Origin: Priapulus caudatus
Taxonomy: Eukaryota
Assembly (NCBI RefSeq): GCF_000485595.1
Contig: NW_014577083.1
Coordinates: 23,196 to 87,195 of the forward strand
Direction of reading: 5' to 3'
DNA: 64,000 bases
The translations under genes were made by a program, and so were the position numbers. The notes under the pieces are model-generated. The model saw only the letters and a program-made list of their open reading frames with translations. It was not told the DNA's origin and searched no databases. Below, piece after piece: positions 11,677-50,754 of this stretch (position 1 is the first letter of the stretch; every line of letters starts with the position of its first letter).

Positions 11677-12104
11677 CAGTGCTCAAAATAAGCGTTGTCC
11701 GGTTGTCCGAGACAACCAGAATTTGCGCCGGACAACCTAACCAGTCTGAGACATTGTCCGGTGGACAACCAAGAAAAATGTGACCAAAAACGCACTTTAT
11801 TTATATTTTTCTGACCGCGGATTGAATTTATTTCGGCTGTCGATCGGCCTTGCATTGCGTCCATAGCTAGTGTTGTTTCACGGCTTCTCATTGGTCTCCC
11901 CATGACCGTCCTGATTCATGCAAAGTATTATGTTTACAGGTTGAAATAAAAAAACATTAGAGATATCGCTCCTACAATATGTTTTTGGGTGTTTTCTGAC
12001 CATTATTATTATGTGATTGAAAATAGGAGATTTGGGGATATTTTTTGGGACAACCTGATTTGATGTCTGGGTTGTCCGCATTTTTTTTCTTATTTCAAGC
12101 ACTG
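11677..12104. mobile_element. hAT-like non-autonomous element inserted in (GT)n
   Basis: TIRs cagtgctcaaaataag / cttatttcaagcactg; 8-bp tgtgtgtg on both flanks. Confidence 0.7.
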
Positions 12105-18100: not shown

Positions 18101-18513
18101 TCGGCAATCTTCACACATTGTCAGCACTGACTGTACAGTGCTGCCACACACAGAAAAAATCGATCACTCACTTCCATCAGCTGCTGGTATTGTGAAACCG
18201 AAACCGGTACAACAGAGCACAACCAGATGAGACGGGATACTAGAGAAGCGTGCCGAAAGGAGGTGTTGACCCGAAGTGCTGAGCGCAGATCTTGCGCGCA
18301 GTTCCACGGCAAGGCGCACGCGACCGCGGGAACGTCCTACGACAGTATGCAGCGTTGGAGCTATGGATCCATGCGCCCGAATGCTCTAGGCCGGCAGCAG
18401 CGCACCATCAGCTGCAGCGAACAGTCCACAATTTTAGTGGGGACACAGAGGGCACGACTTTGGGACGTGAACAGTTTCACTTGTTATAAAACATAATGTC
18501 TCTGTTTCCGTAA

Positions 18514-27836: not shown

Positions 27837-28000
27837 GGAAGCACAGCAACAAGAATGAACCGTCGTCAGCAAACCTGGCCAACAAAAAAGAAGATGGAAG
27901 ACAAAAAGAAGCAGAGGAAGAGATGGAACAACGGTTCCAGGAGAGAAGGAGGACTCGCAATGCACGAGCGCAGAAAGCCACAGACAATGCTGCTCCCAGT
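27837..28000 (+). CDS. PPP1R12A: MYPT exon 14 (region positionally equivalent to the T853 site)
   Basis: ttacag|(G)KHSNKNEPSS...EQRFQERRRTRNARAQKATDNAAPS|gtatgt; 164 nt, phase 1-0. Confidence 0.82.
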
Positions 28001-28274
28001 GTATGTACTGCTTGTACTGATCAGCTCATTAAGTATTCACACAGCATTCCCGTTTTTCAGTAGTTTTAGAATAATAGATATATGAGACCATTTTCTAAAT
28101 GTTTTGGTTAGTAACTTAAATTACACATTGAAATGACATATTTCAAGTAATAATTGTAGGTAAGTAATAAACACATAATCAAAGCAGTTGCTGTCTCACT
28201 GTTAAGGTATTTTCGTGCATTCAGAGATATCAGGCAGACAACGTCTGATTCGTGTCTTTCTTCGTAACGTATAG

Positions 28275-28364
28275 AATAAAGATGTGAATAGACCTGATAC
28301 AACTGATCTGTGCCTGCCTGAAGAGAATATCAAGATTAAAGAGGAGGTTAAAGATCAATACAAG
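28275..28364 (+). CDS. PPP1R12A: MYPT exon 15
   Basis: gtatag|NKDVNRPDTTDLCLPEENIKIKEEVKDQYK|gtaggc; 90 nt, phase 0-0. Confidence 0.7.
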
Positions 28365-29505
28365 GTAGGCACAGCAGTAATTTCTCTACAGCTTCCATAC
28401 GTGATGTCAGTAAACCTAGTATTAATTAATTATTTAATTAAATAATTAATAATTATTTAATTAATAACAGTGCTGTAAAAATGTGAAAAGATGGACATGG
28501 CATAGTAAACGGCCACTACATCCCAGTTATTTGTTTCTGTGATATCATTAAGATCAGAAAAGTATTAGTAGCTGTTTAGGTACCGCTGTGGTACTGCACA
28601 CATCTTTTATCAACAGTGACCTCAAACTCGGAAGCTGTTTGCAGAAATTCAGGGTTAATCAATATTCACAGGGCCATGTATACAGAGAGATATTCTATAA
28701 ATGTGTTAATAGTCACCATGTTTAGCTCAGCTTCGTCATGCATAATAACCAGTATGTGCGTTCATCCAAAACAATGCTTGCAGACAAAAAACATTATTAC
28801 ATAATGAATAATATAGGCAGTGTTTTTACTCGCTAATTTTGAAAGCTTCGATTCCCTGTAAGGGGCCCCGATTGCATGTGTGCCAAAGACTAATTAACCG
28901 TTGTGCAGTAACTATTCGCCTAGAATCACCTTCTATACGCATGTTTCCTGTTGCAATATCATTGCATTTGCTATTGGTAGGACCTGCTTTTTAATATAAT
29001 GTAGACAAGAAAGTGTGACATTGGTGATAGTTCATTTTTTACCACATAGCTTAACGATAAATACCTTGCTCGAGGCGCTCAACGTGTGTTTGCCCGTGCA
29101 ATCGCCATGTCAAACTGCGGGCAAATTCAGACAGCTCAGAGGATCATTGTAACCTTGAGAGTAACATTACTGTAATGGTTCTAATTCCTATTTAGGCAGG
29201 TGGGGCGGTAGGGCGGGAAGGGATGGCGATTCAATAAACAACGTACCGACCTTTGAGCGTCTGCCTGATGGCGATGTCTTATCGGTTAACATTGTTATGC
29301 CCATGATCAGTGGCATATTCAGCGACCCACCTGAAATCCAACGTCTGATCAGAAGAGATACGTATAGATCAGAAGTAGATAATAGGGAAATCGCCTTTTA
29401 TCTACTTCTGGTATAGATCGATGCAGCATCTAGATACATATGATCATGAGTCCATAATAGAATTTTGTTAATCTTGAAAGTTCATAGTCGGTTTTCTTCT
29501 AAAAC

Positions 29506-30039
29506 ATTAATAATAACATTGTTCATAGTTAAATCCTTAAATTATTTACCTTGACAGTTTCAGCTGTCGTTCTGACAGCCATCTTCAGAACTTAGTAAGT
29601 TCTTCAGAACTTAGTAAGTTCTGAAGATGGCTGTCAGAACGACAGCTGAAACTGTCAAGGTAAATAAGGCCATAATAAAAATATTGTTTGTTTGTTCTCA
29701 CCCGACCGACCCGCCAAAAATGGGCCGACTCAAACATTTTTATTGATATTTACCATTCTTTTTTTTATACAAATTGTATCACTGTACATTATATAAATCT
29801 GTAGGCAATACATTATATGTACCAATCAAAACAAACATTCAACATAAAAGGTATCTCCACACAAGCACACCCGAGCATGTAGACACTATGCTGAATTTGT
29901 AAAAAGACCCCCCTCAAAAAAAATGTTAAGCCTACCTACCTACCCAAACTTTTCAGCCTGGGTCGGGTGAGGGCAAACAAATATTTTTTTAATTGTGGTT
30001 TAATTTAAGGATTTAACCATGAACAATGATGTTATTAAT
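29506..30039. repeat. long palindrome (Penelope-end-like, hammerhead-like core) interrupted by a MITE
   Basis: arms ttatttaccttgacagtttcagctgtcgttctgacagccatcttcagaactta / exact reverse complement; the right arm resumes at 30001. Confidence 0.75.
29668..30000. mobile_element. PIF/Harbinger (Tourist-like) MITE; second copy at 36217-36547
   Basis: TAA TSD on both sides, confirmed by the interrupted palindrome; ~40-bp imperfect TIRs ggccataat...cacccgacc / ggtcgggtg...attgtggtt. Confidence 0.75.
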
Positions 30040-30651
30040 AGAATTTTGTTATTATGGACTCTTGATATGATACATAGATACCAAGAGTAGGCCCTATATA
30101 ATAGAGAGTCTCTATTATGTACTCTTGATAGATACATAGATGCATATAGATCAGGAGCTAATAATGACAAATTTGTCATTATTAGCTCCTGATATAGATG
30201 CGTATAGATTATTTGATGTACAAGCTGTTGGCTGCTGCCGGGGAAAACTAACCGGCAACGTTGTTACAACATCCTGAACTAGACTGAGAGCAGCTGTGGG
30301 AACTAGGCGTAGCGACAAGCGCGCGGATGTGGCACTTAGGGTGCTACAGCCACTGCTATATAAAACGTTATGTCCTGTCTGATGGGTGTAGGCCTATATT
30401 TAGTTCACAGATGCTATTCAAGTCGGTGAAGTTCAGTTTCCTGCCATCATTGTGTAGGAAATGCGATAAGCGCGCGCGTGTGTGCGCCCGCGTGCGTGCG
30501 CGTGTGTGCGTCCGCGTGCGTGCGCGTGTGTGCGTCCGCGTGCGTGCGCGTGCGTGCGCGTGTGTGCGTCCGCGTGCGTGCGCGTGTGTGCTTGCACGCG
30601 TGCATACTATCGTTGGTCCGTATGTGCATGCATGATGTGTGTATGTATGTG

Positions 30652-30687
<36 letters not shown>

Positions 30688-30772
30688 TGTGTGTGTGCGC
30701 GCGCGTTCGTTCGTGTGGGCATGACGTGTGTCGTTGGTCCGTATGTGCATGCATGATGTGTGTATGTATGTG

Positions 30773-30804
<32 letters not shown>

Positions 30805-30914
30805 TGTGTGCGCGCGCGCGTTCATTCGTGTGGGCATGACGTGTGCGTGTGTTAGCGTGCGTGAGTGCGCGCGCGTGAGGAGCTTGTTTGAATGAGTATG
30901 CATGCATGTGTGTG

Positions 30915-30954
<40 letters not shown>

Positions 30955-33447
30955 TGTGTTTAATTTGTGAATGTGTCTTGTCACTTTTACGAGGTTCTTG
31001 GTTCTTGTTCGACAAACAGCAAGTAATGAGTAGTCAGTGAAATCGTCATATATTATAGCCTACATCAAGTTACACTTGCAATTTGATCCAGCGATCTGTA
31101 TGTAGCAGCACTAACAAGCCAGGTATATATATATATATATTACGACTCGTGATTAAGCGGCTTCGTATTTGTTGTAATTGCTCGTAGTGCAATTACTGCA
31201 GGGATTTGTTTCCAACCTAATTAATACTACCCCGGCATGTTAACTACAGTGCGGAATGTAGCTGGGTAGTGGGTGGGTGGTGATACGGGATACACAAGAT
31301 TGGCGCGTGCGCCTGGGGCGGGGTGTAGCTACTGCATGTGTACACACGCACGCACGCACGCATGCACGCACTCACGCACGCACACACGCACACATGAGTA
31401 TATGTATGCGTATGAGGGTGCCGAGTCTGTGGGGACAAGGGGGTGTGTACGCGTGTGCATATGTTTGTGTATTGTGTGTGTGGTGGTACGGGTGTGCATG
31501 TATATGTGGAGTTATATGGGAGGTTCTGGTAGATGTGCGTTAGGATATGTGACAAAGATGTGTTATGAAGACGTGAAGCTCTATGCTTATGGTCGGTACG
31601 ATTAGTTGTGTACAGTATGAGTGTGTGAGTGTTCGTGGTGAGAATGCTTCGCCTGGGCTGGCGTAGAGGAATTCAGCTGTATGTATCTCTAGCATACCAC
31701 TGCGCGAAGTATGCGCACGTAAATAAACACTCGACGGTTATCGTGTTGATTTCGTTGCACAGTGTGTGCACGGGCCGCCACTTTTCACCTGCTGCTATCC
31801 CTCTATAACCTTGTTTACTCTCCCTTTTTCTCCCCCTCTCCCTATTTCTCTCACTCGCTTCAGTGTGTCCCCGATGGACAAGTCCCATCGCCTAATCGAT
31901 ACTCCTATACCGATTCTGGCCAAAAACTTGCCTAGTCTGTATTTCAAGACAGTGCATCCATCCACCACGCTTGTAAGCAGTGCAGTCCAGTGTGTAGGTA
32001 GGTATACACTGGCTGTAAAATCTTTTTCGAATCTGTAGCCGGCAATAGAATAATTCCAGATGGCGGTTCCTTGAATTCAATAACGTGGCAAGAGAGAGAT
32101 TTACATCGCAATTAAAAGTCTACTAAATCACCTCTCATACGTCTACACGCAAGTGAATTAAAGATTCTTCTTTGCCTTTCCTCATATGGGTGGTCTTTAA
32201 GACGTAAGTTTCGCAGAGGCGGCGTAAACAAAAAATAATATTTAGTGTATATATTAGTAACAGCTCGTAGCTTCTGGCTGTGCGCTAGACTGGATCACAG
32301 GCACTTGAAGCGTTTTAATAAAATATATACGCAGAGGTCGTGTGCTGTGCACGGCGCCAGTTAAATATATAGTTAACTATATATTTAACTGTCGCCGTGC
32401 ATATAGCACACGACCCCTGCGTATATATTTTATTGAAACGCTTGAAGTGCCTGTGGACTGGATCCCCTCTCTCTGGATCTCTCCACCTCGTAATGGATCC
32501 ATGGTTTGTGCAGAAACAACAACCCTGTTTAGCTGTGAGTGTGACCGCTTCATCCCCCCGATCAGCAAGATACGAAGATTTGTACTTTACAATTTTTCAC
32601 CAGCGTATTATAAATGCTACTACGTACACCTTGCGTTGCTGGAGAGCCTATTATTGATATACGCAGGGGTTAATAATGACAAATTATGACAAATTATGAC
32701 AAATAATGACAAATGGAATAATGATTTTGTTACTATGGATATGAATTTGACACTATTAACCCCTGATATACGTTCAGCGGAGTAAATCAACCGCAGGCCA
32801 AGACCTTGAGCTCGTCAAGTTGGTTATTGACATTATGGAATGAGACTATTCATATCGGAAAGCAATGGGTGTGAATCTATGCTGTTTGGCGCTGCCTGTT
32901 TGATAGTTTACTGGGGTGGGGACGGATTGCAGAAAACCGCGGAGCGAAAAAAATGCGACGCTGAAAGTTGTAAGCGGTAGCTTAACAACGTGGGTAAAAA
33001 CGTGGTTGCTGATAGCTGCAGCTCTGCTATATAGACCTATACTAGGGAGCCGGTGGTGGCCTTCGCGCACGGTAGCAGCCAGCCAGCCAGCTACCGCCTC
33101 GGGGCATTGTACGTGAGCTGTGTGTAAATGTTTATCCATGACGCTGTGAGCTGACATATGCCGAGGTGTGATGCGCAGCGACAGATACCGTACATGTGGC
33201 TGCCACGGGGCTATTAAACATTAATTGTGACCAGAAGCTCGAATGTAAGTAGCTACACACCGCCGTAGGAGCCACTGTAGAGCCAAGTGCAATAGCTAAT
33301 CAGATGATGAGCTGTGCTTGTACGTAGTACGACGTTATCAGGAGTCTATCAATATCTATTATATATTATATATTATATATTATATATATATTATATATAT
33401 ATATATATATATATTATATTGATAGACTCCTGACGTTATTGTAATAT

Positions 33448-33482
33448 GGGTTAGGGTTAGGGTTAGGGTTAGGGTTAGGGTT
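33448..33482. repeat. interstitial (TTAGGG)n; similar tracts at 1399-1450, 4438-4474 and 38346-38410
   Basis: gggttagggttagggtt... Confidence 0.85.
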
Positions 33483-34774
33483 GTGGTTTCACCTGGTAGC
33501 TGGCTGGCTGCTTCTGCTGAGAATGCAAATTTATGCATTTCATTTGAATCGCGGCTTGACACGTTTCTGCTGCAGCTGTAGTATCTGGATAGTTCTGCGT
33601 CTAGACTTGCAATAAGCAGCTCCCTGAGCAGAGTGCAAGAGAGGACTGCCCCTCAGATGTTGCATTTGGATGAACGGTGGTCGTTATGACACATAAAGTG
33701 ATCTCTTAGGGGAATGAAAGTGCGCTCACTCCTCCAATCCCTCTCCCTTTCTCCCTATTATTTTCTCTCTCGTGCATATGACAGTGCCTTTTCCTCTAGT
33801 ACGTGTAATATCTACGATAGTATCACAACACACATGTGTGTCATCGGTATCAGTTCGCAGTTAGTGCAGTATAGTTACACGTTAGGGAACAACATAAGTA
33901 GTAGTGTTCTAACCTATTAGGTTTGGTAGTGTAGTAACCCCTTAATAGTAGGAACTGTAGTGAGTTCGTCTGACGGTGCACATAATAAATAATGTGTTTA
34001 AATTAATTAATTATTTAATTTTAAATAGGGTGTTAATTTCGTGATGCCCATTACGAGATTCTCGCACCATTACTGATAATTATCATTAATAATTTCTATG
34101 TAGTTGAGGGCTCAGATGGTTCGTTATAGGATATCAAGAGCATATACATTTACTTTCTAATTATTCTCACATGTCATTAGGTTCTTGTCGATATACCTGT
34201 ATTATTAAGGTAGAGAACGCATTTTTGGAAAAACTCTTCGGGAATACGTCAGTGGGTATATATACATTTATTTACTGTTTAGTGAAGTAAAACAATTTAG
34301 TATATTTGGCTTCGCGTTAGCGGTTAGATGCTTCTTTGTCCTTATCAGAGTTCTTATTCAACTTCTTAGTATTCCTTCTTTGTTCTTATCATGTATTATT
34401 CCTCGCATTATGTTGCAGGGTGTCATGGTTTGTAGTCTTTGGCAGCGATTCACGTTCACTCTTTAACCCATATACTGATAACATACATAATATTGACATT
34501 CACATTGTAAACACTCATGTAAATTAACTGACAGTTAGCAAGTGCGCCGCGCCGAAACGTAAAAGAAAAACAAATATGTGTGTTTATTGTGCGTCTTGTT
34601 CTTCCGCATTTTCTACATTTGGTATTTCTTTTTGTGTTAAAAAACCTATTGACCTATGTCACTATATATAGGTCGGGCAAGATTAATGGTGGCTGTCATT
34701 GGACATGTAAATCTTGCAGCAAGACTGTATGGGGCGCTGGGGAGGTATGCGACGTGCAATGCACATACCACATA

Positions 34775-35225
34775 CAGTAATAACCCGCGTATAAGAACAT
34801 AGATTTTAAGACATGTTACTGTTAGGCTAAATTTCCCATTTAGACCCTTTCATAAGAACCTGTTTTAGGCTCAGATTTTAAAGTAGGTTCTTAATTTTTC
34901 ATGCAGATGAAGACTTAAACAGAAACACGCATCTTTTTGCATGTTGTTTTGTTTCCTTGGATACATACTGTATCATACAGTATGGTAAGCACTGAAAAAC
35001 TTACACTGTAGCCCATCATGGTATTAATTAGCAAAAATTGCAGTTCTTGTAAGAAAATTTTAACACAATTTGAATCAAGTATAAGCGTATACATATTAAA
35101 GTAGAAACAATTAAGAACCTATTTAAGAACCTTTTGAGCCTAATTTTTCAGTAAGCACCATTTATATAAGAACATGTTGAGGCTAACTTGGAAAAATCTA
35201 TGTTCTTATACGCGGGTTATTACTG
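34775..35225. mobile_element. Tc1/mariner-type MITE
   Basis: TA|cagtaataacccgcgtataagaacatagatttt ... aaaatctatgttcttatacgcgggttattactg|TA; perfect ~33-bp TIR. Confidence 0.85.
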
Positions 35226-35276
35226 TAAGCAACCTTTATCAGTGTATGCGCCTTTATCAATGCTCCTCGGAGCTAC

Positions 35277-37200
35277 TTAGCTCAGCTTCGTCATGCATAA
35301 TAACCAGTATGTGCGTTCATCCAAAACAATGCTTGCAGACAAAAAACATTATTACATAATGAATAATATAGGCAGTGTTTTTACTCGCTAATTTTGAAAG
35401 CTTCGATTCCCTGTAAGGGGCCCCGATTGCATGTGTGCCAAAGACTAATTAACCGTTTGCAGTAACTATTCGCCTAGAATCACCTTCTATACGCATGTTT
35501 CCTGTTGCATATCATTGCATTTGCTATTGGTAGGACCTGCTTTTTAAATATAATGTAGACAAGAAAGTGTGACATTGGTGATAGTTCATTTTTACCACAT
35601 AGCCTAACGATAAATACCTTGCTCGAGGCGCTCAACGTGTGTTTGCCCGTGCAATCGCCATGTCAAACTGCGGGCAAATTCAGACAGCTCAGAGGATCAT
35701 TGTAACCTTGAGAGTAACATTACTGTAATGGTTCTAATTCCTATTTAGGCAGGTGGGGCGGTAGGGCGGAAGGGATGGCGATTCAATAAACAACGTACCG
35801 ACCTTTGAGCGTCTGCCTGATGGCGATGTCTTATCGGTTAACATTGTTATGCCCATGTCAGTGGCATATCAGCGACCCACCTGAAATCCAACGTCTGATC
35901 AGAAGAGATACGTATAGATCAGAAGTAGATAATAGGGAAATCGCCTTTTATCTACTTCTGGTATAATCGATGCAGCATCTAGATACATATGATCATGAGT
36001 CCATAATAGAATTTTGTTAATCTTGAAAGTTCATTGTCGGATTTCTTTTAAAACATTAATAACATCATTGTTCATAGTTAAATCCTTAAATTATTTACCT
36101 TGACAGTTTCAGCTGTCGTTCTGACAGCCATCTTCAGAACTTAGTAAGTTCTTCAGAACTTAGTAAGTTCTGAAGATGGCTGTCAGAACGACAGCTGAAA
36201 CTGTCAAGGTAAATAAGGCCATAATAAAAATATTGTTTGTTTGCCCTCACCCGACGACCCGCCAAAAATGGGCCGACTCAAACATTTTTATTGATATTTA
36301 CCATTCTTTTTTTTATACAAATTGTATCACTGTACATTATATAAATCTGTAGGCAATACATTATATGTACCAATCAAAACAAACATTCAACATAAAAGGT
36401 ATCCCCACACAAGCACACCCGAGCATGTAGACACTATGCTGAATTTGTAAAAAGACCCCCCTCAAAAAAATGTTAAGCCTACCTACCTACCCAAACTTTT
36501 CAGCCTGGGTCGGGTGAGGGCAAACAAATATTTTTTTAATTGTGGTTTAATTTAAGGATTTAACCATGAACAATGATGTTATTAATAGAATTTTGTTATT
36601 ATGGACTCTTGATATGATACATAGATACCAAGAGTAGGCCCTACATAATAGAGGTCTCTATTATGTACTATTGATAGATACATAGATGCATATAGATCAG
36701 GAGCTAATAATGACAAATTTGTCATTATTAGCTCCTGATATAGATGCGTATAGATTATTTGATGTACAAGCTGTTGGCTGCTGCCGGGAAAACTAACCGG
36801 CAACGTTGTTACAACATCCTGAACTAGACTGAGAGCAGCTGTGGGAACTAGGCGTAGCGACAAGCCGCGGATGTGGCACTTAGGGTGCTACAGCCACTGC
36901 TATATAAAACGTTATGTCCTGTCTGTAGGGTGTAGGCCTATATTTAGTTCACAGATGCTATTCAAGTCGGTGAAGTTCAGTTTCCTGCATCATTGTGTAG
37001 GAAATGCGATAGCGCGCGCGTGTGTGCGTCCGCGTGCGTGCGCGTGTGTGCGCCCGCGTGCGTGCGCGTGTCGCTGTGTGCGTCCGCGTGCGTGCGCGTG
37101 CGTGCGTCCGCGTGCGTGCGCGTGCGTGCGCGTGTGTGCTTGCACGCGTGCATACTATCGTTGGTCCGTATGTGCATGCATGATGTGTGTATGTATGTGG

Positions 37201-37232
<32 letters not shown>

Positions 37233-37554
37233 TGTGTGTGTTGCGCGCGCGTTCGTTCGTGTGGGCATGACGTGTGCTGTTGTGAGCGTGCGTGAGTGCG
37301 CGCGCGTGAGGAGCTTGTTTGAATGAGTATGCATGCATGTGTGTGTGTGCGTGCGTGCGTGCTCGTGCGTGCGTGCGTGCGTGCGTGCGTGTGTTTAATT
37401 TGTGAATGTGTCTTGTCACTTTTACGAGGTTCTTGGTCTTGTTCGACAAACAGCAAGTAATGAGTAGTCAGTGAAATCGTCATATATTAGCCTACATCAA
37501 GTTACACTTGCAATTTGATCCAGCGATCTGTATGTAGCAGCACTATACAATGCC

Positions 37555-37590
<36 letters not shown>
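35277..37590. repeat. ~2.3-kb direct duplication, copy 2
   Basis: matches 28722-31140 with scattered substitutions and 1-nt deletions. Confidence 0.9.
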
Positions 37591-39444: not shown

Positions 39445-39591
39445 AGTCTTTCCGAGCGTTACCGAGCAAGATTTGCGTCTGACCCCTCGCCTGCGTCCTC
39501 CGAGCGCGCCACTCCAGCTTCCAGACCGGTTAGCAGTAGCTTATCCAGCTACGAGCAAATAGAAAATGAATCGAAGAAAGACTACAAGAAG
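39445..39591 (+). CDS. PPP1R12A: MYPT exon 16 (ends DYKK, start of C-terminal coiled coil)
   Basis: ttgcag|SLSERYRARFASDPSPAS...ENESKKDYKK|gtaaga; 147 nt; DYKK|LYE junction is typical of MYPT proteins. Confidence 0.9.
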
Positions 39592-40266
39592 GTAAGAGTC
39601 TTTTGCGTTTTGATGTGGATTGCATTCGGCAGAAAGTAAGGGTGAAACTATTCTTTCTTATGAACTTATGGGGGGAGTGTTATGAAGAGTTAGGTGTGTC
39701 TGGAAAGAAGAAATTTCTACTTGAAGTGCTTTTTTCTGCTTTATACTATTGTGGTCATGTGTCTACCACATCTTTCCACCTAGTCTCTAAGCTTCATGTA
39801 TAAACTATGTTGAAGAATAAGATAAAATATAAAAAGGATGATCAATATTAAAAGGCCTAGAACTATTCTAAAACTACTTCTGCAACAATAAATATTACGA
39901 GTGGTGGAACGAGTGGTGGTTTTACAATGCCAAATTCTGTTTTCCACTGAGATTCACGATTGTTGCTGGAGAATGATTGCGTGGGACAATCTGCCACATT
40001 TAGCACCCACTTTCCATACTGTTTACATATTTTTGTTCTCCGGCGCTGCAAATGATGTCCAGAAAAACAGGGTGTTAGCTGATACTAAAGTGATACCACC
40101 CTCTCGTAGTGTACGATCTAGACGCGAATTCTACATACAAAAAATTCACTTGGCATGAGATCCCCGTGCAACAGCTCCTAGTGAGATATCCTAGCTCCTA
40201 GTGTATCTCATTGTAGTGACTACTATCTGCGTGGGGTTACAGCATTGGTGTAATCTAGTCTACTTA

Positions 40267-40666
40267 AGCGGGGGACACACTATGCGAATTTCACCGCGAT
40301 CAGATCCGCACCCGCATGCGATAAATTGAGCGGACACACTACACGCGATCTATTGTCGCCACACGGCTCCAGCCATGGCTGCAACAGTCATGTGATCTCT
40401 GGTGAAAGATGGCACGTGATTAGCATACTGATCAATGATTCGCTGCATTATAACATCGGCCGGCTCGATTTTCGCTTCCACGGACACAATGCGAATCTGT
40501 ACGCAGCGATAAAAATTCGCAGCGAAAATATCAAACATGTTTGATAGCTGCGAATTTCGGTGCGGATAATATTCGCCAGCGCTTGAGCGCACACACTATG
40601 CGAATTTTGCTGCGATTTTAACAATCGCTGCTGTCGTGCGAATAAATTCGCATGGTGTCCCCTGCT
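40267..40666. mobile_element. PIF/Harbinger-like MITE
   Basis: TTA|agcgggggacacactatgcgaattt ... aaattcgcatggtgtcccctgct|TTA. Confidence 0.75.
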
Positions 40667-40861
40667 TTATCCACCAGCTCCACAGACGTTTAAGAGGGCT
40701 GGTTTGGCTGATCATTATCATCGCATTGTGATCAGTGATTCAATGACATTATCAGTTCATAATTAGGTAATTACCCTTACAAAAATTTAAGCAATCCACA
40801 AGCGATCGAACACATCGATTGCTTGTCGATTGCTTAATAAGCAATCTCATCCTATATCAGC

Positions 40862-41169
40862 ATTAATCAGCATGTATTTTTGGGATAATAATCTATCATG
40901 CAGTTGTGTTTAAATTAATTCATAATTTGAGGAATATATTTTGAGCAAGTTGATGTAAATGAAACTGTTCGCAGCTTCTTCGCTGAAACCACGTAACTGT
41001 GCAGCAGCAGAAATTTTGAATAGAATGATACTGTAAGTACCAATGAGCGTTACACAGAGGTGTATATGGTTTACCAACTTATTACTCAAAATATATTTCT
41101 TGAAATTATAAATTAATTTAAAAACAACTGCATAATAGATTATTATCCCAAAAATATATGCTGATTAAT
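40862..41169. mobile_element. AT-rich foldback element
   Basis: ~80-bp imperfect arms attaatcagcatgtattttttgggataataatcta / tagattattatcccaaaaatatatgctgattaat. Confidence 0.6.
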
Positions 41170-44100
41170 ACAATTCTACATTAGCTCGTTATATGGAGTT
41201 TTCCGTGGCTAGTCTCATGCGTCAGTATGCACATAATGTCTCTATGACGTCTATTGATTCACTCGTTACCTCGCTGCTAAGTAGATATCGTTAACTATGC
41301 AACATGTATCATTATAAAAGTGTCTGGTGTGTCCCGAGCTCTGACGATTAAAGCTGCTAGTATCGGAATGATTAGCGAATGCAAGCGTATGCGAGTTTTT
41401 TGGCACACACGTCTGTTTCGGTATCTTCGTTTACTGAAGCCCTGCTTGGATCTTTTTCTGTCGAACCGCGCGTGCCGATGATTTCACTGCCTTATAGCAA
41501 GTTCTAGTATGCCTGGAAATAGGTAGTGATCTAGATAGTGACAGAAAAAACAAGATTCAATAGCTATGTATGTGAGATAGATGTAAATTGATGCAATAGA
41601 TGTTCATATTTTTTCGTGTCATTTGCCACGAAACATTGCGCAGTTAATATTTTTTGCTACTGCGTTTGTAAAGAAGGAGTGGGGGGAATGTAGAAGCTAT
41701 TCCACAAGCGTCAGGCATGGTGGGCGAGTGATGGATGATATAGAAGGACTGATGGATGACGTGACAGCCGAATCCGCATAAATATGAAAGCATAAACGAA
41801 ATATGAGTGTTTTCTTATTTATTAAACATTAAACAGAAAATATAGAAAAATTAATCTCTCTTCATCATCACCTAGATCTCAAGCGCTTCTTCTTGCCTTG
41901 CTCAAACCTAGCTGCGTCATATATATTATTTATTGGTACCTGACATAATATGACATTATAAATCTGAAGAAGATTACAGTAACATAAAGTTATCTATACC
42001 TTAGTTTGTGGCAACGTATATAAACTTTTTAACCAGAAAATTGCTCATCTGATTTCATGTTATTTGAAGAACTTGTTTGTAAAAACAGTTTCCCCTTGGC
42101 CCCGACATAAAGTCTAGCATGCAACGAAATGTAAATTGATTTGCTCATCCCGTATATAGTTATATCTCGTTATTTCGATGAACTCAGAGAAGGTGTGTGT
42201 TGCTGTGAAGCCATGCTCACTAGATGAGTCATCTTTTGAGTGCTGAGGATGAGGATGCGAGGGAAGCTGTGATGTCACGTGCAGGCATGCCGCCAATTAT
42301 ACATGCGCCTATGTTGTTTTTCAGCGCTACGCGTGCCCACACAGAGTGCTTTTAATTCAGGCTACCAAAAATGGAGTCCATGTCTGGGTATCGGATTCGT
42401 GCCGGATCGGCCCATTCACCGTGTCGGGGGTGGGGGTGGGGGAGTGCGCGCTCCGGGGTGGGCGCATGATGGAGCGTAACAGCAGCGTAATGGACACGTG
42501 CCGCTGGTTTATCCAAATATTTTGTGCGGTGAGAAGCTGTGATGTAGTCGAGATTGCGAGAGTGCTCACTGCCGCCGACCAGACCGCGTAGGAGAGTGAG
42601 CGCAGCGTCGGTATACAATCAGCAGTATGATAGAGACCGCACACATTCACGCCTGATTAGCTGCTGGCGAAACTTCGTACTGGCAATAAATTAGTACAAA
42701 TTACTCGTGGATGCGACAGTGTGAGCGTACACGCCCGAATCGCGTAAAAACTTGATCACGAGTTCGTCTCTGGGTCCGTGTGTATGACGTGTTTTATCAG
42801 GCGTGTATAATATAGAGTATATAATATAGAGTATATAAGAATCTCTATATTATACACTCCTGGTGTTATCGTACGCTGGTTGCGAGGCTGTGTATATGGT
42901 CGGTATATGATTGCGAGTGATTATAATTACTCGTCGCCATATTTCACCCCCCCCCCCGTCGTTGAGATCCTTTGTCATTATCAGGTGTAATAATGACAAA
43001 TATGACATTTTTTTTTGTTTTATTATTTTATTTATTATATTTGTTATTGTATATGCGCCGTATATATATATATACCGCAAAACGGGCGTTACTGATAAAA
43101 AATTCAGTTGTCATAAAAATTATGATGGTGATTGCAATTATGCACACGTAAAATGTCTCACCTCAGTTCAGTCTGTCCCCGTGATACTGGTCTTACTGCA
43201 TGACGTTATGTTTTCTACAGATTCAACGAGATTTATTGGTTAAAGTCTATAAAATTAATTGTTTTCTTGTCTTAAATCACATTTTGGTTTTTTGATATCG
43301 TAGGACATTCCACATTCGTTTTTCGTTTTTCTAGCTTCTGGCTTTTGGATGAGTATTGTACGTGCGTGGGAATAAGTGGTTTCGATCTTTCTTGCTTACC
43401 ATTTCTTGCAATTCACGCGCTCGTATGTTGATTTTTGTTTGTGGTTAAATAGCAGGATTAAAATTGTTTTCAAACTGCCACACAATAAACATTTACCAAT
43501 ATTGCACCATTTAGGACAGTGATATTTTACAAGAATATCAGTTAATTGCGCGTTTATAGCCGTGTTTTGTGTTGTGTATACTTAGACAAACAGCAACAAA
43601 GATTTGCACATCTGGTTTTCGCCGTTTGTAGTATTTGGCCCAAGAGTGTATATAATCAATTGAGAAGGTAAATCGTCTGCCAGTTCGAATTCTTCATAAC
43701 GAAACATTCCACGTTGGTGGAATACGGGTTTGTGGTGAGAACAACGCACGTTGATTTTTGTGAAGTTTAGTTAATAGTTGAATTTTTTAATGACAGCAAA
43801 AAAATGATACTGTGTATATGCGAGCTGGGGCTGCTTTATTGGATCATCACCACGAGTTAGTATAATTTAATTCTTAGAAATGAACGTTGTTATTGAGCGA
43901 TCTAAATAACCATAATCAATGTGCTTCACAATTTACCAATACTCGTGTTCGGATGATCATTCTTTTGTCTTACATAAGATAGCTAAGGTGCCCTCTTAGC
44001 CTTTTTCATCGCGATTTTACAGCGAAGTCGTGACTTTTAATTTGGCAGTACGTACACGCTGTATAAAGCTGGAGATATCGGGTCAGAATAACCGAAAAAC

Positions 44101-44608
44101 TATATAGCAAAGAAGACGGACAATAGTTTTCAGAGAATTCACAGAAAATATTGAGGGTTGCAATTGCGTGCGGTAGAGTTTAGTAACACTAGCTGTGATT
44201 CAACAATAAAGACACCTGATAAATTAACTCGTTCGTATATACATGCTGATGTAAGCTATGCTCCGTACATGCCACCCTATAGAATGTGCATCACCGCATG
44301 TTGCTACACCGACGCATGACTGTCAACAGCCACCATGCTTCAAGCGTTCATATTTACCATTTATGTTTACAGTAATTCTCTCTCATATCAGAATTCCCAC
44401 AAATACATGGGGAGGGTATTGAGGAATGTGTGTTTCGTCACTATATAGATATTAACTGTCGATATGTGAATGCGCAGCTGTACTTGTTTACTATCAATAG
44501 ATAATAATACATGTGTATTGTTACAATACATGCACAATGTATTATTCGCGCTTGTTAATAGTATCTATACTCAATCTGTGAAGCGGTGATGACGCATANN
44601 NNNNNNNN

Positions 44609-44649
44609 TACTACTACTGCTACTGCTACTGCTACTGCTACTGCTACTG

Positions 44650-44681
<32 letters not shown>

Positions 44682-44685
44682 ACTG

Positions 44686-44726
<41 letters not shown>

Positions 44727-44798
44727 GCGAATATGACTACAGCTACTGCTACTACTACTTCTACTGCTGCTGCTGCTGCTACTGCTACTGCTAGTGGC

Positions 44799-44829
<31 letters not shown>

Positions 44830-44843
44830 CTACTGCTAGTGGC

Positions 44844-44875
<32 letters not shown>

Positions 44876-44905
44876 GAATATGACGACAGCTATTGCTACT
44901 ACGAC
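44609..44905. repeat. (GCT/ACT)n trinucleotide microsatellite
   Basis: seen directly; source of the poly-Ala/Thr ORF. Confidence 0.95.
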
Positions 44906-45114
44906 TGGAAATCCCGCGTACTACTACAGCATCCTATCGTGGAGTGATATATGTGATAGGAGGAGCGAGGAAGTAGTTAGGCTAACTTCATCTAACAGGA
45001 TTTCAAGCGGCGTCAGGGGGCTGCAGACCGGGTCGGGGAGGCGCGTACGCGCGCATCCACATGCTATTTGTTTTCAAACGCGGCAGCCGCTGCCCTACAT
45101 GTGTTCCTTTCCCG

Positions 45115-45218
45115 CTAAAAATAGCTCGCCGGCGTCTGGTGTGTGTTGCAGCTGGCTGGCATTAGGGCTTCGCAGTGCCTTGCTTCTTCCACCCGTACGT
45201 CCGGCATTCCTTTCAGTC
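45115..45218 (+). promoter_or_regulatory. candidate muscle enhancer/internal promoter: MEF2 + E-box + M-CAT cluster
   Basis: CTAAAAATAG (MEF2) 45115-45124, CAGCTG (E-box) 45149-45154, CATTCCT (M-CAT/TEAD) 45205-45211, Inr-like TCAGTC 45213-45218, all within a CpG-rich stretch (~45000-45800). Confidence 0.55.
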
Positions 45219-45813
45219 TGCGCCATCTCGTCTTGCGCGTACGGTGGCGCCACCAGCGGTTGCTCCTCGCAGCACTCGGGCTGGCTGCGTGCACGCTACG
45301 CGGTACTGTTCGCGCGCGCTTACAGCGGCTGCACACGTCACGGGGTATGAACACGTTACCCAGGTGTTGTTAATTTCGCGCGTCGTACTTTGCGAGTGCA
45401 CAAGGTGTTGCTACGGTCATAAGCTGCTATTGGACCGAATGAAGACACGTGCTTTTGTTTGGCATCGAGACCGTCATTGCGTTAGCGTGTACGCAGCTTG
45501 ACTCGAGCCACGATACATGGATTGTCAGTTATAGCGTACTGTCAGTGATTTCTGAGGCTGTTTCGTCGAGTGCTTATTAATTCCACGCATCGGACGCGAG
45601 GGACCTGACAAAAAACGAGTTTCGGATAATATAACCAACATCGAAAAATCAATAACGTGCATCATATATTATCAAGCTTGCAGTGTAGTGCTTGCTAACG
45701 GTGTAGCGTGCGTGACCACACACACGCACACGGCTCCGGACGGCGTGGATCGGGGCCAGAGTGCATCCCGGCCTCCAGTCCCGTGTCACAGTTGCTAGCA
45801 TCACCGCTTGACC

Positions 45814-46284
45814 ATGTCGTACGGCCGCTACGGTCTAGGTTCGTCGTACGGGACGGGGAATACATCCAACAAGTACTCACCCAGCAGCTACGGCAGCAGT
45901 AACTACGGCAGCGGCGGCAGCGGTAACAACTACGGCAGCAGCAGCTATGGCAGCGGCAACTACGGCAGCAGCAACTACGGCAGCGGCGGTGGTTACGGCT
46001 CGAAGGCCACCGGCGGCGGCTACTCTAGTCCACTGCTGTCCAGTCTCGGCTCGGGCACGCGCTCGTCGGGCTATAGCAGTCCGTACAGCAGCGGATACAG
46101 CACGCCCAAGTCTAACTCTGGCTACTCGACGCCGACAAACTACGGCTCGTCGTCGCTGTACGGCTCGACGTCGAGTCCCGCAAAGTCACTGAGCGGCGGT
46201 TACACGCCCTACTCCGCCTACGAGAGAGGCTCGGCTCTGTCGAAAGACGCGAGTCCCAGCTATTCGGGATTTGGTTCTGCTAGT
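45814..46284 (+). CDS. PPP1R12A: alternative first coding exon of a short MYPT isoform: 157-aa Gly/Ser/Tyr-rich low-complexity domain
   Basis: ACCATG start with in-frame TAG upstream (45796); strong C-ending codon bias; AGT|gtaagc phase-0 donor compatible with exon 17. Confidence 0.78.
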
Positions 46285-46339
46285 GTAAGCGTTTTTAGTT
46301 TCTCGCTCCTCTCTGGTGTCGTAAATTAAGGGTGTTGGG

Positions 46340-46760
46340 GTGGTAGGGTGTGAGCGTTGGACGGAGGTTAGTGTGCGAGGGGGTAGGGTGTGTGTGGAGG
46401 GGGGTTAGGGTGTGCTTGGTAGGGTGTGAGCGTTGGACGGAGGTTATAGTGTGCGAGGGGGTAGAGTGTGTGTGGAGGGGGGTTAGGGTGTGGTTGGTAG
46501 GGTGTGAGCGTTGGACGGAGGTTAGTGTGCGAGGGGAGTAGGGTGTGTGATGTAGTGTGTGTGTGGAGGGGGGGTTAAGGGGGAGGGGGTAGTGTGTATG
46601 TGCGAGGGGGTTAGGGTGTGTGACGTAGTGTGTGTGTGTGGGGGGGAGGGTTAGGGTGGAGGTGGTGGAGTGTGATGGGGTTAGTGCATATGCAGCAGAG
46701 TGTGAAGAGAGTTAGGGTGTGGATGGTAGGGTGTTAGAGTGTATCAGGGTAAGGGCATGG
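46340..46760 (+). repeat. G/T-rich minisatellite-like tract
   Basis: recurring gtagggtgtgagcgttggacggaggtta and many GGG runs. Confidence 0.8.
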
Positions 46761-47634
46761 GTGATGTTAGGGGCGGGGTTCAGACGTGAGTGGTATAGGG
46801 TGTTGGAATGTGGGTGACCGAGTTTTGAATTGATGGGGATGTGGGTGGTGCAGACCACTGTAGGGGTGGCACCAGATCCAAGCGGCTGTCGTCCTTAGAC
46901 CTAGGGGTGGGGGACTCGCATTGCAAGTTGTCAAACTCTGTACAAAACTAAGGTTTTCCCCTAATTTGAAATTTATAAAAATGGTATCTTTAGCGTTTTT
47001 AACGGGAAATTATTACCACAACCATAACTATTGTATGTAATATATAATATAATGTGTACATATATTAATACATACATACATAATGTAATGTGTTAAAATA
47101 TAATGTAATATAGTAATATATGCTATGTACAGATGAATCAGCCCTTCATCATGGTGATTGGTTTCAAAAGTATTACTGCGACTATAGCGCAACGGTATAA
47201 CAGATAAAAAGCAACTGCAATTTTTTTAAAGATCGTTCGCGCTGAAGCACTACTGTTTTTTCCTGCGGGGGCAAAGCCTACCCGGTGGGGAAGCTGTAGC
47301 ACTCACCCCTTGCACTTCCTCTGGCGTGGTGGGATGCTGGGTTGGAGAGTTGGCTTCTAGATGTAGGTACTTGACGGTGAAGTGGGCGGTGGTTATGTAG
47401 GTGAGGGGGTGTGCGGGCGTTGGTGGGGATGGTAGTTGGAGAGTTGGCTTCTAGATGTAGGTACTTGACGGTGAAGTGGGCGGTGGTTATGTAGGTGAGG
47501 GGGTGTGCGGGCGTTGGTGGGGATGGTAGGGGTAGTGCAGTGGTTATAGGTAGATAAGTGGGGCGGGGCGTTGGTGGGATGGTAGGAGTAGTGCAGTGGT
47601 TATGTAGGTGAGGGGGAGTCGGGGCGTTGGTGGT

Positions 47635-47872
47635 AAGCAATCGACAAGCAATCGAGACTGATCCTAAGCAATCGACAAGCAATCGAGACTGATCTTAAGC
47701 AATCGACAAGCAATTGAGACTGATCCTAAGCAATCGACAAGCAATCGAGACTGATCCTAAGCAATCGACAAGCAATCGAGACTGATCCTAAGCAATCGAG
47801 ACTGATCCTAAGCAATCGACAAGCAATCGAGACTGATCAACAAGACTGATCTTAAGCAATCGAGACTGATCC
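47635..47872. repeat. 31-bp minisatellite
   Basis: unit aagcaatcgacaagcaatcgagactgatcct, head-to-tail with no spacers. Confidence 0.9.
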
Positions 47873-48051
47873 TATATCAGGAGTGAATAATGACAGAATT
47901 GTCATGAATTTGTCATTGAATTGAAATTGTCATTGAACTTGTCAATGAAAATTTGACAGTATTCACCCCTGGTAATATGAACAGCACTTTACAATGCCCA
48001 GGGTTGCTCAAGTATCGAATGATCTGATGTTTACTCTTGGTCGTGCTGCAG

Positions 48052-48150
48052 TTGTACGAAGAAGAGAAACGAACGAACGAAGACTTGAAAGATAAGCTAC
48101 GAACTACCGATGCTGATCTTCAAGCGGTCAAAAAGCAACTTGAAGAGTTG
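48052..48150 (+). CDS. PPP1R12A: MYPT exon 17 (coiled coil)
   Basis: ctgcag|LYEEEKRTNEDLKDKLRTTDADLQAVKKQLEEL|gtaagc; 99 nt. Confidence 0.93.
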
Positions 48151-48292
48151 GTAAGCAGTTCTGCTGGTAAAGTTGCTCGATACCTACGTGGTTATTTTAG
48201 TCGGCACTCTCATTTTCCTGGCCCAGTTTTTACCGTGTTATTTTCGGGAGTTTTTTGTCTAACCGGTGTTTTTTTTCTTGCCACTGTTTCAG

Positions 48293-48328
48293 TTGCGAAA
48301 TGGAGACGCTGGAGGATTGGACGTGAAG
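48293..48328 (+). CDS. PPP1R12A: MYPT exon 18
   Basis: strong polypyrimidine tract, tttcag|LRNGDAGGLDVK|gtaagc; 36 nt, phase 0-0. Confidence 0.82.
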
Positions 48329-48703
48329 GTAAGCAGACACGCTTGTGTTTATTTCTTTGGCTAATAGCTAGTATTCTTGCAAATGCGGTATAACCAGTGT
48401 ATCCTATTACAGCTCACTAAATATATATATGCTGTCTGAGTGAGTGGTCGTTGATAGTGCTGTGCCTGATTGATTGCTTGGTTGGTCTTCTTCTTCATTA
48501 GAGAACACTATTACTGAGATAGTGGCATCTTTCTATGATGCTTCACTAATAATAGCTTCGAGTTGAAAGGTTTAAGTGCGCTTCATAGGTTTGTCTTGTT
48601 GCGATAGTTGCGGTGTGTATAGAACCGGAGATAGCCACTGTGTGGTGTTCATGTGTAGTTGCTAATGGGGGGAAATGGGTAATCTTCGATTTTTTCTCTA
48701 CAG

Positions 48704-48754
48704 GACAAAAGAATCACGGAGAAAAAGATGTCAGAATTGGAGGAGGAAGTGAAG
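48704..48754 (+). CDS. PPP1R12A: MYPT exon 19 (coiled coil)
   Basis: ctacag|DKRITEKKMSELEEEVK|gtgagc; 51 nt; resembles vertebrate ERRALERRISEMEEELK. Confidence 0.92.
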
Positions 48755-48935: not shown

Positions 48936-49022
48936 CAATTGGAAAAATTAAAAGCTGAAAATACGAAATTGAAAGAGGAAAATAGGGCGCTGACGCGAGT
49001 GGTGTCAAAACTTTCCAAGTAA
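48936..49022 (+). CDS. PPP1R12A: MYPT terminal exon 20a (leucine zipper A)
   Basis: tttcag|QLEKLKAENTKLKEENRALTRVVSKLSK*; 87 nt. Confidence 0.92.
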   Translation, partial: QLEKLKAENTKLKEENRALTRVVSKLSK

Positions 49023-50754
49023 CTGGTAAATGTAGTGCTAAATGATGTAATGTTGGCATGAAGAAGTTTCCACGCATAGAGGCTATATAACAGCATGTCC
49101 CTGCCTCAATGTCTGACGCTTGCACGCATATCAGAGTCCCGTACAAACACCAACCAAACAACTAACAACGGATTTTTCGTGAAAACGAACAGGTTTTGTG
49201 GATTAAAATGATGCAAGTTGGTTGAAAATATTACTGCCTCACGTCTACATAATATAACAGCGGCCGGGTTCATTAGTGAATTATTCAATTAGTGAAATCC
49301 TTGCAACTTAAATTCTGCGCATTTTTGAATAGCAACACCCAGCCGAGTCGACCGTCCCGAATCGGCCATCAGTTTTAGTCATCGGGCAAAACTGGAAAAT
49401 TTTCCTTGAACGGTTTTCGAACGAACATGAGTTATATATAAACTCGAGGTGATATAGGCAGCTGTCAACTAGTAAGTCTGCACTTGGTATAAGCAGAGCA
49501 GAAATCTCTGTGAAACAGATATAGCTGTAATTATTTGCAGGGCATTCCCAAGTGCTGACATCGCTACCACGACCCTGAATTAACCGACAAATCTCTAATA
49601 ATAGTCCGAACCTTAACCAGCAGTTTTGCAATAATGATATCAGTTATGATGTGCATTCTGAACAGGAATTCCTCCGTTGCATCTTAATTTCTAAAACGAC
49701 TGTGGTCCATCTCTGGTAGCAAACGTGTTCATGTTAATAGAGACAAAGGTCACAGTATTTTGCTGTGTGCGTGCGTTTGTGCGCGTGTGCGGCCGTACGT
49801 GTGCATGCACGTGTGCGGCCGTACGTGTGCATGCACGTGTGCCAATACTTGTATACATAACCAACCATTAAGTTGTCTGTCAGTTGCCTATGCTTATCCA
49901 GGAGCTTAACCCTGTTCATATGTTGTGTATTTTGCTTGCTTTGTTACCGTTCTGGTACAGGTTGCTATCAGAACATTTTGTGGAGTTCATACTGTTTGGA
50001 CTTCTTGTTATTTCTGTTTGGATTTTGCTTACAACATCTATATTCTAATTCATTTAGTTCATGTGTGCGATAGTATTTGTACGTGTGTGCGTGCATGTGC
50101 GTGTTTGTGAATGTGTGCATCAGTGTGCTTTTATGTATGTGAGTGCTCAACTGCATACGTGTTCGCGTGCATGCGTGCGTTCGTGCCTGCGTGCCTTCGT
50201 GAGTGTGCGTGCCTTCGTGTGTGTGTGCGTGTCTTCGTGTGTGCGTGCGTGCCTTCGTGTGTGTGTGTGCGTGCCTTCGTGAGTGTGCGTGCCTTCGTGT
50301 GTGCGTGCGTGCATTAGGATATATGGAAGTGTGAAACGTGTGTGAAATATCTGCTGTAAATGAAAACTATTTCATGTTTCCTTCAATGCTTGTGTTATTA
50401 TTATGCAAAATTATGCTTTGCAAAAGTCTACTTTGCAAAAGAAAAAGCAAATTTAAATTGCATTCGTAAACTGACTTTATATAATATCATAATCCATAAT
50501 CATCAAATATTAGTGTAAATTTAGGTGAATTGGATGGTCAATGCATTATTTACTGTTTCTTTGTAAAAATCCAAGCTTTCCTAAACCCCCAATTAATTTG
50601 ATCTATAAAAGCATCTATGTATCTGTTCTGTGTATGAAGTGCAATATTATCACATGAATATATATAATGCACTCTTATGTTGATATCTATGTATTAGATC
50701 TTACTACAGGTGTTTAGAGAGGGTCTATAATATACTACATTTGTTTGATTTCAG

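What the first reader, a model, noticed from the sequence alone, without database searches (positions are those of the whole stretch)
45814..46284. Hidden internal first exon predicts an M20/M21-like small myosin phosphatase subunit with a prion-like Gly/Ser/Tyr domain
Seen: intron 16 of MYPT contains a 157-codon frame with an ACCATG start, an in-frame stop 18 nt upstream, strong coding-like codon bias, about 22 Tyr mostly in [G/S/N]Y[G/S] motifs, and a phase-0 gtaagc donor. Splicing to exons 17-20 gives a ~247-aa protein: low-complexity domain + coiled coil + leucine zipper, with no PP1-binding motif, ankyrin repeats or RRSTQG. Established: vertebrate PPP1R12B makes the small subunits M20/HS-M21 from an internal promoter, and [G/S]Y[G/S] repeats drive phase separation in FUS-type proteins. 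Inference: this is an invertebrate counterpart of the small subunit with a condensate-prone N-terminus. It could dimerise through the zipper with full-length MYPT, PKG or Par-4. I do not know of a described equivalent.
Basis: partly seen in the sequence, partly recalled or inferred. Interest (0 to 1): 0.88.

Follow-up and report, generated by a model that had tools for sequence, protein, structure and literature searches.

The report
Ancient short myosin-phosphatase subunit in invertebrates
An unannotated, expressed tyrosine-rich exon inside the myosin-phosphatase gene of a priapulid worm is the likely start of a short, enzyme-less form that recurs in arthropods and probably molluscs and likely works like the poorly understood vertebrate small subunit M20, though its exons look out of order here, probably through an assembly error.

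Summary
The exon is real and expressed, but the predicted junction is wrong. The window holds Priapulus caudatus PPP1R12A-like. One RNA-derived contig joins donor 46284 in frame to the exon at 39445-39591, which lies upstream in this assembly; no 46284->48052 joint was seen. The product is therefore predicted at 296 aa, not 247. In 9 of 9 homologous genomic loci holding both exons, a Met-started Ser/Gly/Tyr exon lies before this 'DYKK' linker exon, and 0 of 51 long MYPT forms carry such a segment. So this is a conserved internal first exon, and the window is probably locally mis-ordered; the same gene shows another scaffolding error. Ankyrin-less MYPT forms already sit in databases, but six literature searches found no described invertebrate M20. 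Binding, muscle expression and condensate formation are untested. The scan earlier noted the vertebrate counterpart in a camelid (e1-9082170).

The parts
45115..45124 (+). MEF2-like site CTAAAAATAG, 222 nt before the point where RNA contigs stop (consensus recalled); CAGCTG E-box at 45149
   Evidence: 26 of 20000 shuffles of the 400-nt stretch hold a strict site, but the window has 8 such sites (1.6 expected) and none was found at a like place in 6 homologous loci; a hint only
45337..45813 (+). 5' leader of the internal first exon, CpG-rich (o/e 1.31), three short uORFs that end before the main ATG
   Evidence: X1 contig 45338-45896 unspliced; X2 contigs 45337-45691. Contigs cannot show a start site
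45814..46284 (+). coding part of the internal first exon: 157-aa Ser/Gly/Tyr head (68% S+G+Y, 22 Tyr, 8 S/T-P sites), phase-0 donor
   Evidence: X1 contigs cover 45814-45896 and 45960-46284, with a break in the 15-nt repeat 45882-45984
39445..39591 (+). shared linker exon (RefSeq coding exon 17) ending in DYKK, the start of the coiled coil; second exon of the short form although it lies upstream in the assembly
   Evidence: one 478-nt X1 contig = 45960-46284 + 39445-39591 + 6 unseen letters; X2 contig joins it to 48052
48052..48754 (+). coiled-coil exons 48052-48150, 48293-48328, 48704-48754 (PRKG1_interact)
   Evidence: (X2 joints, GT..AG)
48936..49022 (+). terminal zipper exon A (RefSeq X1/X3), stop followed by a candidate donor at 49026
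50755..50841 (+). terminal zipper exon B (RefSeq X2)
28275..28364 (+). last long-form-only exon; the true place of the first exon is inferred to be in the intron after it
   Evidence: the X2 contig reaches 39445 from an exon ending in AG, which fits this exon
44599..44608 (.). 10-N assembly gap followed by a (CTG)n repeat, left edge of the block that holds the first exon
28722..37574 (.). direct duplicate 28722-31140 = 35277-37574 in the intron where the exon is expected; the second copy has 13 one-base deletions in 1.7 kb

Best explanation
This expressed exon is the likely first exon of an internal MYPT transcript that splices to the DYKK linker exon and is predicted to give a 296-aa protein (tyrosine-rich head plus coiled coil) which likely pairs with full-length MYPT and tunes myosin phosphatase as vertebrate M20 does; its position after the linker exon is likely an assembly error. 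Shown: the frame, its presence in RNA, use of donor 46284, the in-frame joint to 39445, skipping by the long form, and the same exon layout in arthropod loci. Inferred: an internal promoter near 45337, continuation from 39591 to 48052 in the same molecule, mis-ordering of the scaffold (about 0.8), coiled-coil pairing with long MYPT that breaks MYPT-MYPT dimers and lowers phosphatase output (about 0.6, by analogy with PMC13755552 section 12), muscle bias (about 0.5), and self-association or anchoring through the Tyr-rich head (about 0.3).
For: RNA: X1 contig (478 nt, word depth 15.4, 0 differences over 325 + 147 nt) joins 46284 to 39445 exactly at donor and acceptor; X1 leader contig runs unspliced 45338-45896; X2 contig runs upstream exon -> 39445 exon -> 48052 -> 48293 -> 48704 without the new exon. 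Homologues: of 14 hits under 562 aa, 8 (P0005, 6, 9, 10, 12, 13, 14, 15: beetles, leafhopper, cockroach, wasp, ostracod, spider, one unnamed) start with Met and an S/G/Y-rich head, and oyster P0011 has such a segment after its RRSTG motif. mRNA locus L003 has a 734-nt leader collinear with genomic L027 and encodes 295 aa. 9 of 9 genomic loci with both exons place the head exon upstream of the linker exon; 8 of 9 show a phase-0 donor, 6 of them gtaagc; 4 of 9 also show long-form exons further upstream. 0 of 51 long forms hold an S/G/Y window before the coiled coil, 10 of 87 short proteins start with one. The human MYPT1 coiled-coil structure 5HUZ starts at DFKKLYEQ, residues the 247-aa model would cut. 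Assembly: 7673-10692 between two N gaps is an inverted copy of 14299-18206 and its flanks overlap by about 80 nt.
Against: The key joint rests on one contig of one run, whose organism label differs from the other runs and which differs from the window at 7 of about 560 leader letters. Raw-read runs X3-X5 barely cover the gene and show no exon joints. The 6 letters after 39591 were not displayed. The leader contig and the junction contig are not bridged (45897-45959). There is no N gap between 46284 and 48052 and no overlap marking a misjoin was found. Sequence likeness of the head to homologues is mostly compositional: 3 of 11 heads beat shuffles at z>3, and BLASTP against the oyster protein gives E 0.56. 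The probable vertebrate M20 sequences (P0089, P0151; identity recalled) have no S/G/Y bias.
Confidence: 0.7

Rival explanations
1. The window's order is real and the joint is made out of order: trans-splicing of the internal-promoter RNA onto the 39445 acceptor of a full-length pre-mRNA, or back-splicing into a circle.
For: The RNA joint does run backwards on this assembly; 44609-48052 has no N gap.
Against: Collinear order in 9 of 9 homologous loci; a clear scaffolding error in the same gene; the leader is unspliced across 45799, which a circle would need to use.
Confidence: 0.07
2. The sequenced animal carries a real rearrangement (or a second, collapsed copy of the linker exon lies after 46284), so run X1 and the window differ in gene order; in the window's allele the first reader's 247-aa splice could occur.
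For: X1 has a different organism label and leader differences; the intron holds a 2.4-kb duplicate.
Against: No 46284->48052 joint in 4 runs, though only X1 covers the donor; that product would lack the conserved DYKK start of the coiled coil; one-base deletions in the duplicate look like read errors.
Confidence: 0.1
3. The short form is real but works apart from myosin phosphatase, as a self-assembling cytoskeletal polymer (low-complexity head plus coiled-coil rod, as in intermediate filaments or fly TM1-I/C) or as a PKG/Par-4 adaptor.
For: Head-plus-rod layout; 10 strict [GS]Y[GS] triplets, the FUS motif (27 in FUS; PMC8675291 passages); prion-like score 23 for residues 3-62 against -8 for the best window of the long form (recalled parameters); composition kept across phyla.
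Against: The rod is only about 95 aa and identical to that of long MYPT; many arthropod heads have only 1-4 strict triplets and low scores; N+Q is 6%.
Confidence: 0.2
4. The exon is a cassette included in full-length MYPT through the 45799 acceptor.
For: A phase-0 TAG acceptor exists at 45796-45798.
Against: X1 reads through it unspliced; T-poor tract, 5 T against 5-14 in 19 true acceptors; RefSeq X1-X3 lack it; 0 of 51 long homologues have such a segment.
Confidence: 0.03

Closest known systems
Vertebrate M20 / HS-M21 small subunit (PPP1R12B alternative promoter; human NP_001184060.1 per PMC13755552)
   Same: Made from inside a MYPT gene by its own start; no RVxF, ankyrins or RRSTQG; keeps coiled coil and zipper. 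Two unnamed 183-188-aa hits (P0089, P0151) that I recall as the smooth-muscle M20 type show the same order, unique head + linker + DYKK/NYKK, and begin MSSLY, like the MSY/MSSY starts of the invertebrate forms.
   Different: 296 aa against about 185; head is S/G/Y low-complexity here and not in those hits (z -0.2, -1.1); comes from the gene named PPP1R12A-like, not a MYPT2 paralogue; common descent of the first exons is not shown.
Ankyrin-less arthropod and flatworm MYPT/Mbs database entries (Atlas clusters 'PPP1R12A isoform X7' 363 aa, 'Myosin binding subunit, isoform S' 532 aa, 'putative heart-specific myosin light chain phosphatase small subunit' 200 aa)
   Same: PF15898 only; found with the cockroach short form at scores 0.94-0.96. 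The arthropod short proteins I read share the layout.
   Different: Automatic cluster names; I did not see those members' sequences. The Priapulus form is absent from the protein collection and its head is richer in Gly and Tyr.
FUS-type G/S-Y-G/S low-complexity domains; fly TM1-I/C
   Same: Tyr spaced by Gly/Ser; low-complexity part joined to a coiled coil of a contractile-system gene (TM1-I/C; PMC8675291, PMC11009871 passages).
   Different: 10 triplets against 27, no Gln, no RNA-binding domain; no phase-separation data.

Membership tests
M20/M21 small subunit of myosin phosphatase | own first exon inside a MYPT-family gene | tested here: met
   unspliced leader, upstream stop, donor used, skipped by long form; same in homologues
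M20/M21 small subunit of myosin phosphatase | mapped internal promoter / capped 5' end | tested here: inconclusive
   contigs of two studies stop at 45337 and 45338, but contigs cannot show a start
M20/M21 small subunit of myosin phosphatase | no PP1-binding RVxF, no ankyrin repeats, no RRSTQG | tested here: met
   KIKF (42) and RRSTQG (570) lie only in the long-form part
M20/M21 small subunit of myosin phosphatase | C-terminal coiled coil with or without leucine zipper | tested here: met
   PF15898 on exons 48052, 48939, 50755; 5HUZ match. Which zipper exon the short form uses is not shown
M20/M21 small subunit of myosin phosphatase | about 20 kDa and encoded by PPP1R12B/MYPT2 | tested here: not met
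   296 aa predicted; gene named PPP1R12A-like. So it is not filed as M20 proper, only as working like it
M20/M21 small subunit of myosin phosphatase | binds the MYPT C-terminus in the PP1c-MYPT complex | not tested
M20/M21 small subunit of myosin phosphatase | muscle-restricted expression | not testable with these tools
   only a MEF2-like site and E-box as hints
FUS-type low-complexity (prion-like) domain | many [G/S]Y[G/S] triplets in an uncharged polar stretch | tested here: met
   10 strict triplets, 68% S+G+Y, 1% D+E
FUS-type low-complexity (prion-like) domain | Tyr-dependent phase separation or labile polymers | not testable with these tools
   no experiment; the PLAAC-like score used recalled parameters
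Protostome S/G/Y-headed short MYPT isoform (seen here; database entries only) | Met-started S/G/Y exon, phase-0 donor, joined to a linker exon that ends in DYKK | tested here: met
   against 47, 54, 55
Protostome S/G/Y-headed short MYPT isoform (seen here; database entries only) | head exon lies upstream of the linker exon in the genome | tested here: not met
   reversed in this window; read as a likely assembly error, not resolved

The most novel reading that the evidence does not exclude
M20 is not a vertebrate invention: one internal first exon in front of the DYKK linker exon goes back to the bilaterian ancestor, and in protostomes it encodes a tyrosine-sticker domain that condenses and parks or damps myosin phosphatase on muscle structures. 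Deleting that one exon in a fly would then be a clean genetic test of what the small subunit does. (A bolder side reading, that Priapulus makes this mRNA by out-of-order trans-splicing, is not excluded but has only about 0.05.)
Probability: 0.3. Interest if true: 0.72.

Novelty: new variant of a known kind. Interest (0 to 1): 0.52.

Why it matters
A 2026 review says the role of M20 remains largely unknown (PMC13755552, section 12) and a 2013 paper says no M20 has been identified in Drosophila (PMC3723691, passage). A conserved short isoform with its own first exon in arthropods, priapulids and probably molluscs would bring that question into animals where the exon can be deleted without touching long MYPT. 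The conserved Tyr-rich head is a concrete candidate for the unexplained activity of the N-terminal half. Practically, it shows a RefSeq gene missing an isoform, likely because the scaffold is scrambled.

Tried and rejected
No whole genome was held and no DNA run was listed, so the order could not be checked on DNA. No listed run is on record as an RNA holder; X1 and X2 are read as RNA because their contigs are spliced. X3-X5 raw reads fell mostly on repeats and gave no exon joints. Searches with the head alone found nothing: 0 of 7983 candidates, no Pfam family, no usable Atlas hit, one chance PDB hit, no exact record for 3 of 3 versions. CpG test of whether the 39445 exon groups with exons downstream of the promoter: inconclusive (p 0.29; exons 2-16 against 18-21 p 0.03). 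Search for overlaps marking the misjoin: none beyond dispersed repeats. A 9-nt repeat flanking 40847-47633 was considered as a breakpoint and set aside, since both places are copies of one repeat family. MEF2/CArG sites upstream of 6 homologous head exons: no strict MEF2 site. Linker-exon likeness to 5 arthropod linkers, DYKK removed: none clearly above shuffles. L010 looked like another short form but is likely a frameshifted L011/L012. L028 and L029 look like chance matches and were dropped. The PNAS 2026 M20 paper (PMC13416560) and a 2014 bioinformatic study of myosin phosphatase subunits that I recall (Dippold and Fisher) were not held.

Full report
Observation. The frame is as described: 157 codons at 45814-46284, ACCATG start, in-frame TAG at 45796-45798, phase-0 donor gtaagc, 22 Tyr (15 in [GSN]Y[GS], 10 in [GS]Y[GS]), 68% Ser+Gly+Tyr, GC3 0.77. 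A frame this long came up in 5 of 500 shuffles of the region. The surrounding gene matches Priapulus caudatus PPP1R12A-like XP_014672560.1 exactly. None of the 3 RefSeq isoforms in the cluster holds the new exon, and 3 of 3 versions of the frame have no exact record.

RNA. Five runs were listed, none on record as an RNA holder; four were laid on each of two stretches. X1 has a contig running unspliced over 45338-45896, across the 45799 acceptor, and a 478-nt contig made of 45960-46284 followed at once by 39445-39591 and 6 letters that were not shown. Its loose ends map exactly to the donor and to the 39445 acceptor, and the join is in frame. X2 has leader contigs 45337-45691 and a 660-nt contig that enters the 39445 exon from an exon ending in AG (which fits 28275-28364) and goes on to 48052, 48293 and 48704. 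No 46284->48052 joint was seen, but only X1 covers that donor. Raw-read runs X3-X5 hardly cover the gene. So the exon is expressed, is skipped by the long form, and splices to an exon that lies 6.8 kb upstream in this assembly. The predicted protein is 157 + 139 = 296 aa. Limits: one contig, one run, a different organism label from X2-X5, 7 differences in about 560 leader letters but none in 472 coding letters; contigs cannot show a start site.

Homologues. A search with the last 139 residues among proteins under 562 aa gave 14 hits of 576 candidates. Eight start with Met and a Ser/Gly/Tyr-rich head before DYKKLYE (two beetles, leafhopper, cockroach, wasp, ostracod, spider, one unnamed); one more is a fragment of this kind; the oyster model P0011 has such a segment, starting at an internal Met, right after its RRSTG motif; the other four are mixed or short models. 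A metagenome scan keyed on the coiled coil, not on the head, gave 29 loci. I mapped the 11 genomic loci most likely to span several exons; 9 hold both exons (about 7 distinct sequences), and L021 and L025 do not reach the head. In 9 of 9 the head exon lies upstream of the linker exon ending in DYKK or NYRK, 8 of 9 show a phase-0 donor (6 gtaagc; not located in L018), the 8 checked have an in-frame stop before the ATG, and 4 of 9 show long-form exons further upstream. L003 is an mRNA with a 734-nt leader collinear with L027, encoding 295 aa; its second exon starts SLSDR, against SLSER here. A profile search of 1.84 billion representatives gave 726 hits; of the 144 new ones listed, 87 are short and 57 long. 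Ten short ones begin with such a head; 0 of the 51 long ones in which the coil could be located have such a window. The head is kept in composition more than in sequence: 3 of 11 and 3 of 10 heads beat shuffles at z>3, and BLASTP against the oyster protein is not significant.

Why the order is reversed. The assembly is unreliable here. A 3-kb piece between two N gaps (7673-10692) is an inverted copy of 14299-18206 with many one-base indels, and its flanks overlap by about 80 nt. In the intron where the head exon is expected, 28722-31140 is repeated at 35277-37574, the second copy with 13 one-base deletions in 1.7 kb. The block with the head exon begins at a 10-N gap. Against this, no gap lies between 46284 and 48052 and no overlap marks a misjoin; a CpG test was inconclusive. 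I put mis-assembly at about 0.8, a real rearrangement or collapsed exon copy at about 0.1, out-of-order splicing at about 0.07.

Mechanism. Shown: the product lacks the RVxF motif, ankyrins and RRSTQG and keeps the PF15898 coil, whose solved human counterpart 5HUZ begins at DFKKLYEQ. Inferred: the coil, identical to that of long MYPT, pairs with it. In vertebrates M20 binds the MYPT1 C-terminus, blocks MYPT1-MYPT1 super-dimers and keeps MYPT1 phosphorylated, while calcium sensitisation maps to its N-terminal half (PMC13755552, section 12 read). By analogy the short form would damp phosphatase output, probably in muscle: a strict MEF2-like site lies 222 nt before the contig ends (26 of 20000 shuffles), but the window has 8 such sites and 6 homologous loci showed none. 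The head has the FUS triplet (PMC8675291 passages) and scores 23 in a PLAAC-like test with recalled parameters, against 4.5-30 in 10 homologues and -8 for the long form. Condensation is plausible, untested, and weaker in many arthropods; 8 S/T-P sites offer a phosphorylation role as an alternative.

Known systems and novelty. It works like M20 but fails strict membership on size and gene. Two unnamed hits that I recall as vertebrate smooth-muscle M20 types (P0089, P0151) share the layout and an MSSLY start but not the composition, so shared descent is open. Ankyrin-less forms are already in databases under automatic names, including a fly 'Myosin binding subunit, isoform S' cluster and a flatworm 'small subunit' cluster. 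Six searches (listings and abstract starts seen) found no paper describing an invertebrate small subunit. PMC3723691 (passages) says none has been identified in Drosophila; PMC9367544, PMC3770619 and PMC11009871 (passages) add nothing on this. The library lacks most subscription papers, two relevant ones were not held, and no supplements or FlyBase pages were seen, so the isoform may be noted there. Verdict: real, corrected in its junction, a new variant of a known kind; interest 0.52.

Noticed in passing
window 48936-49025 and 50755-50841: Two alternative zipper exons. In 7 of 8 arthropod-like genomic loci exon A ends in a stop followed directly by a donor, and mRNAs L001-L003 and L008 carry A then B while L004, L005 and L009 skip A: a conserved stop-cassette switch of the zipper, reminiscent of the vertebrate LZ+/LZ- switch (recalled).
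   Followed up: partly
window 58270-58620 (+): ATG frame with a donor near 58619, carrying a basic RRKSSGLV motif like the Par-4/MYPT RRSTG motif. PAWR lies next to PPP1R12A in vertebrates (recalled), so this may be a conserved tandem. No Pfam hit, BLAST against P0011 not significant.
   Followed up: partly
window 6912-18206: Misplaced inverted duplicate contig 7673-10692 in MYPT intron 1, with overlapping gap flanks: a scaffolding error.
   Followed up: yes
window 27837-28364: The RefSeq Priapulus MYPT lacks the second RRSTG kinase-site motif seen in arthropod loci and oyster; it may be lost or sit in an exon missing from the assembly.
   Followed up: no
window 40773-40860 and 47634-47880: Copies of one dispersed repeat with a 31-bp satellite core; present in contigs and reads on both strands.
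   Followed up: partly
P0144 (394 aa, unnamed); L004:1-888: Other short forms with strongly repetitive Tyr heads (29 Tyr, 9 strict triplets; GGSY repeats), as extreme as the Priapulus one.
   Followed up: no
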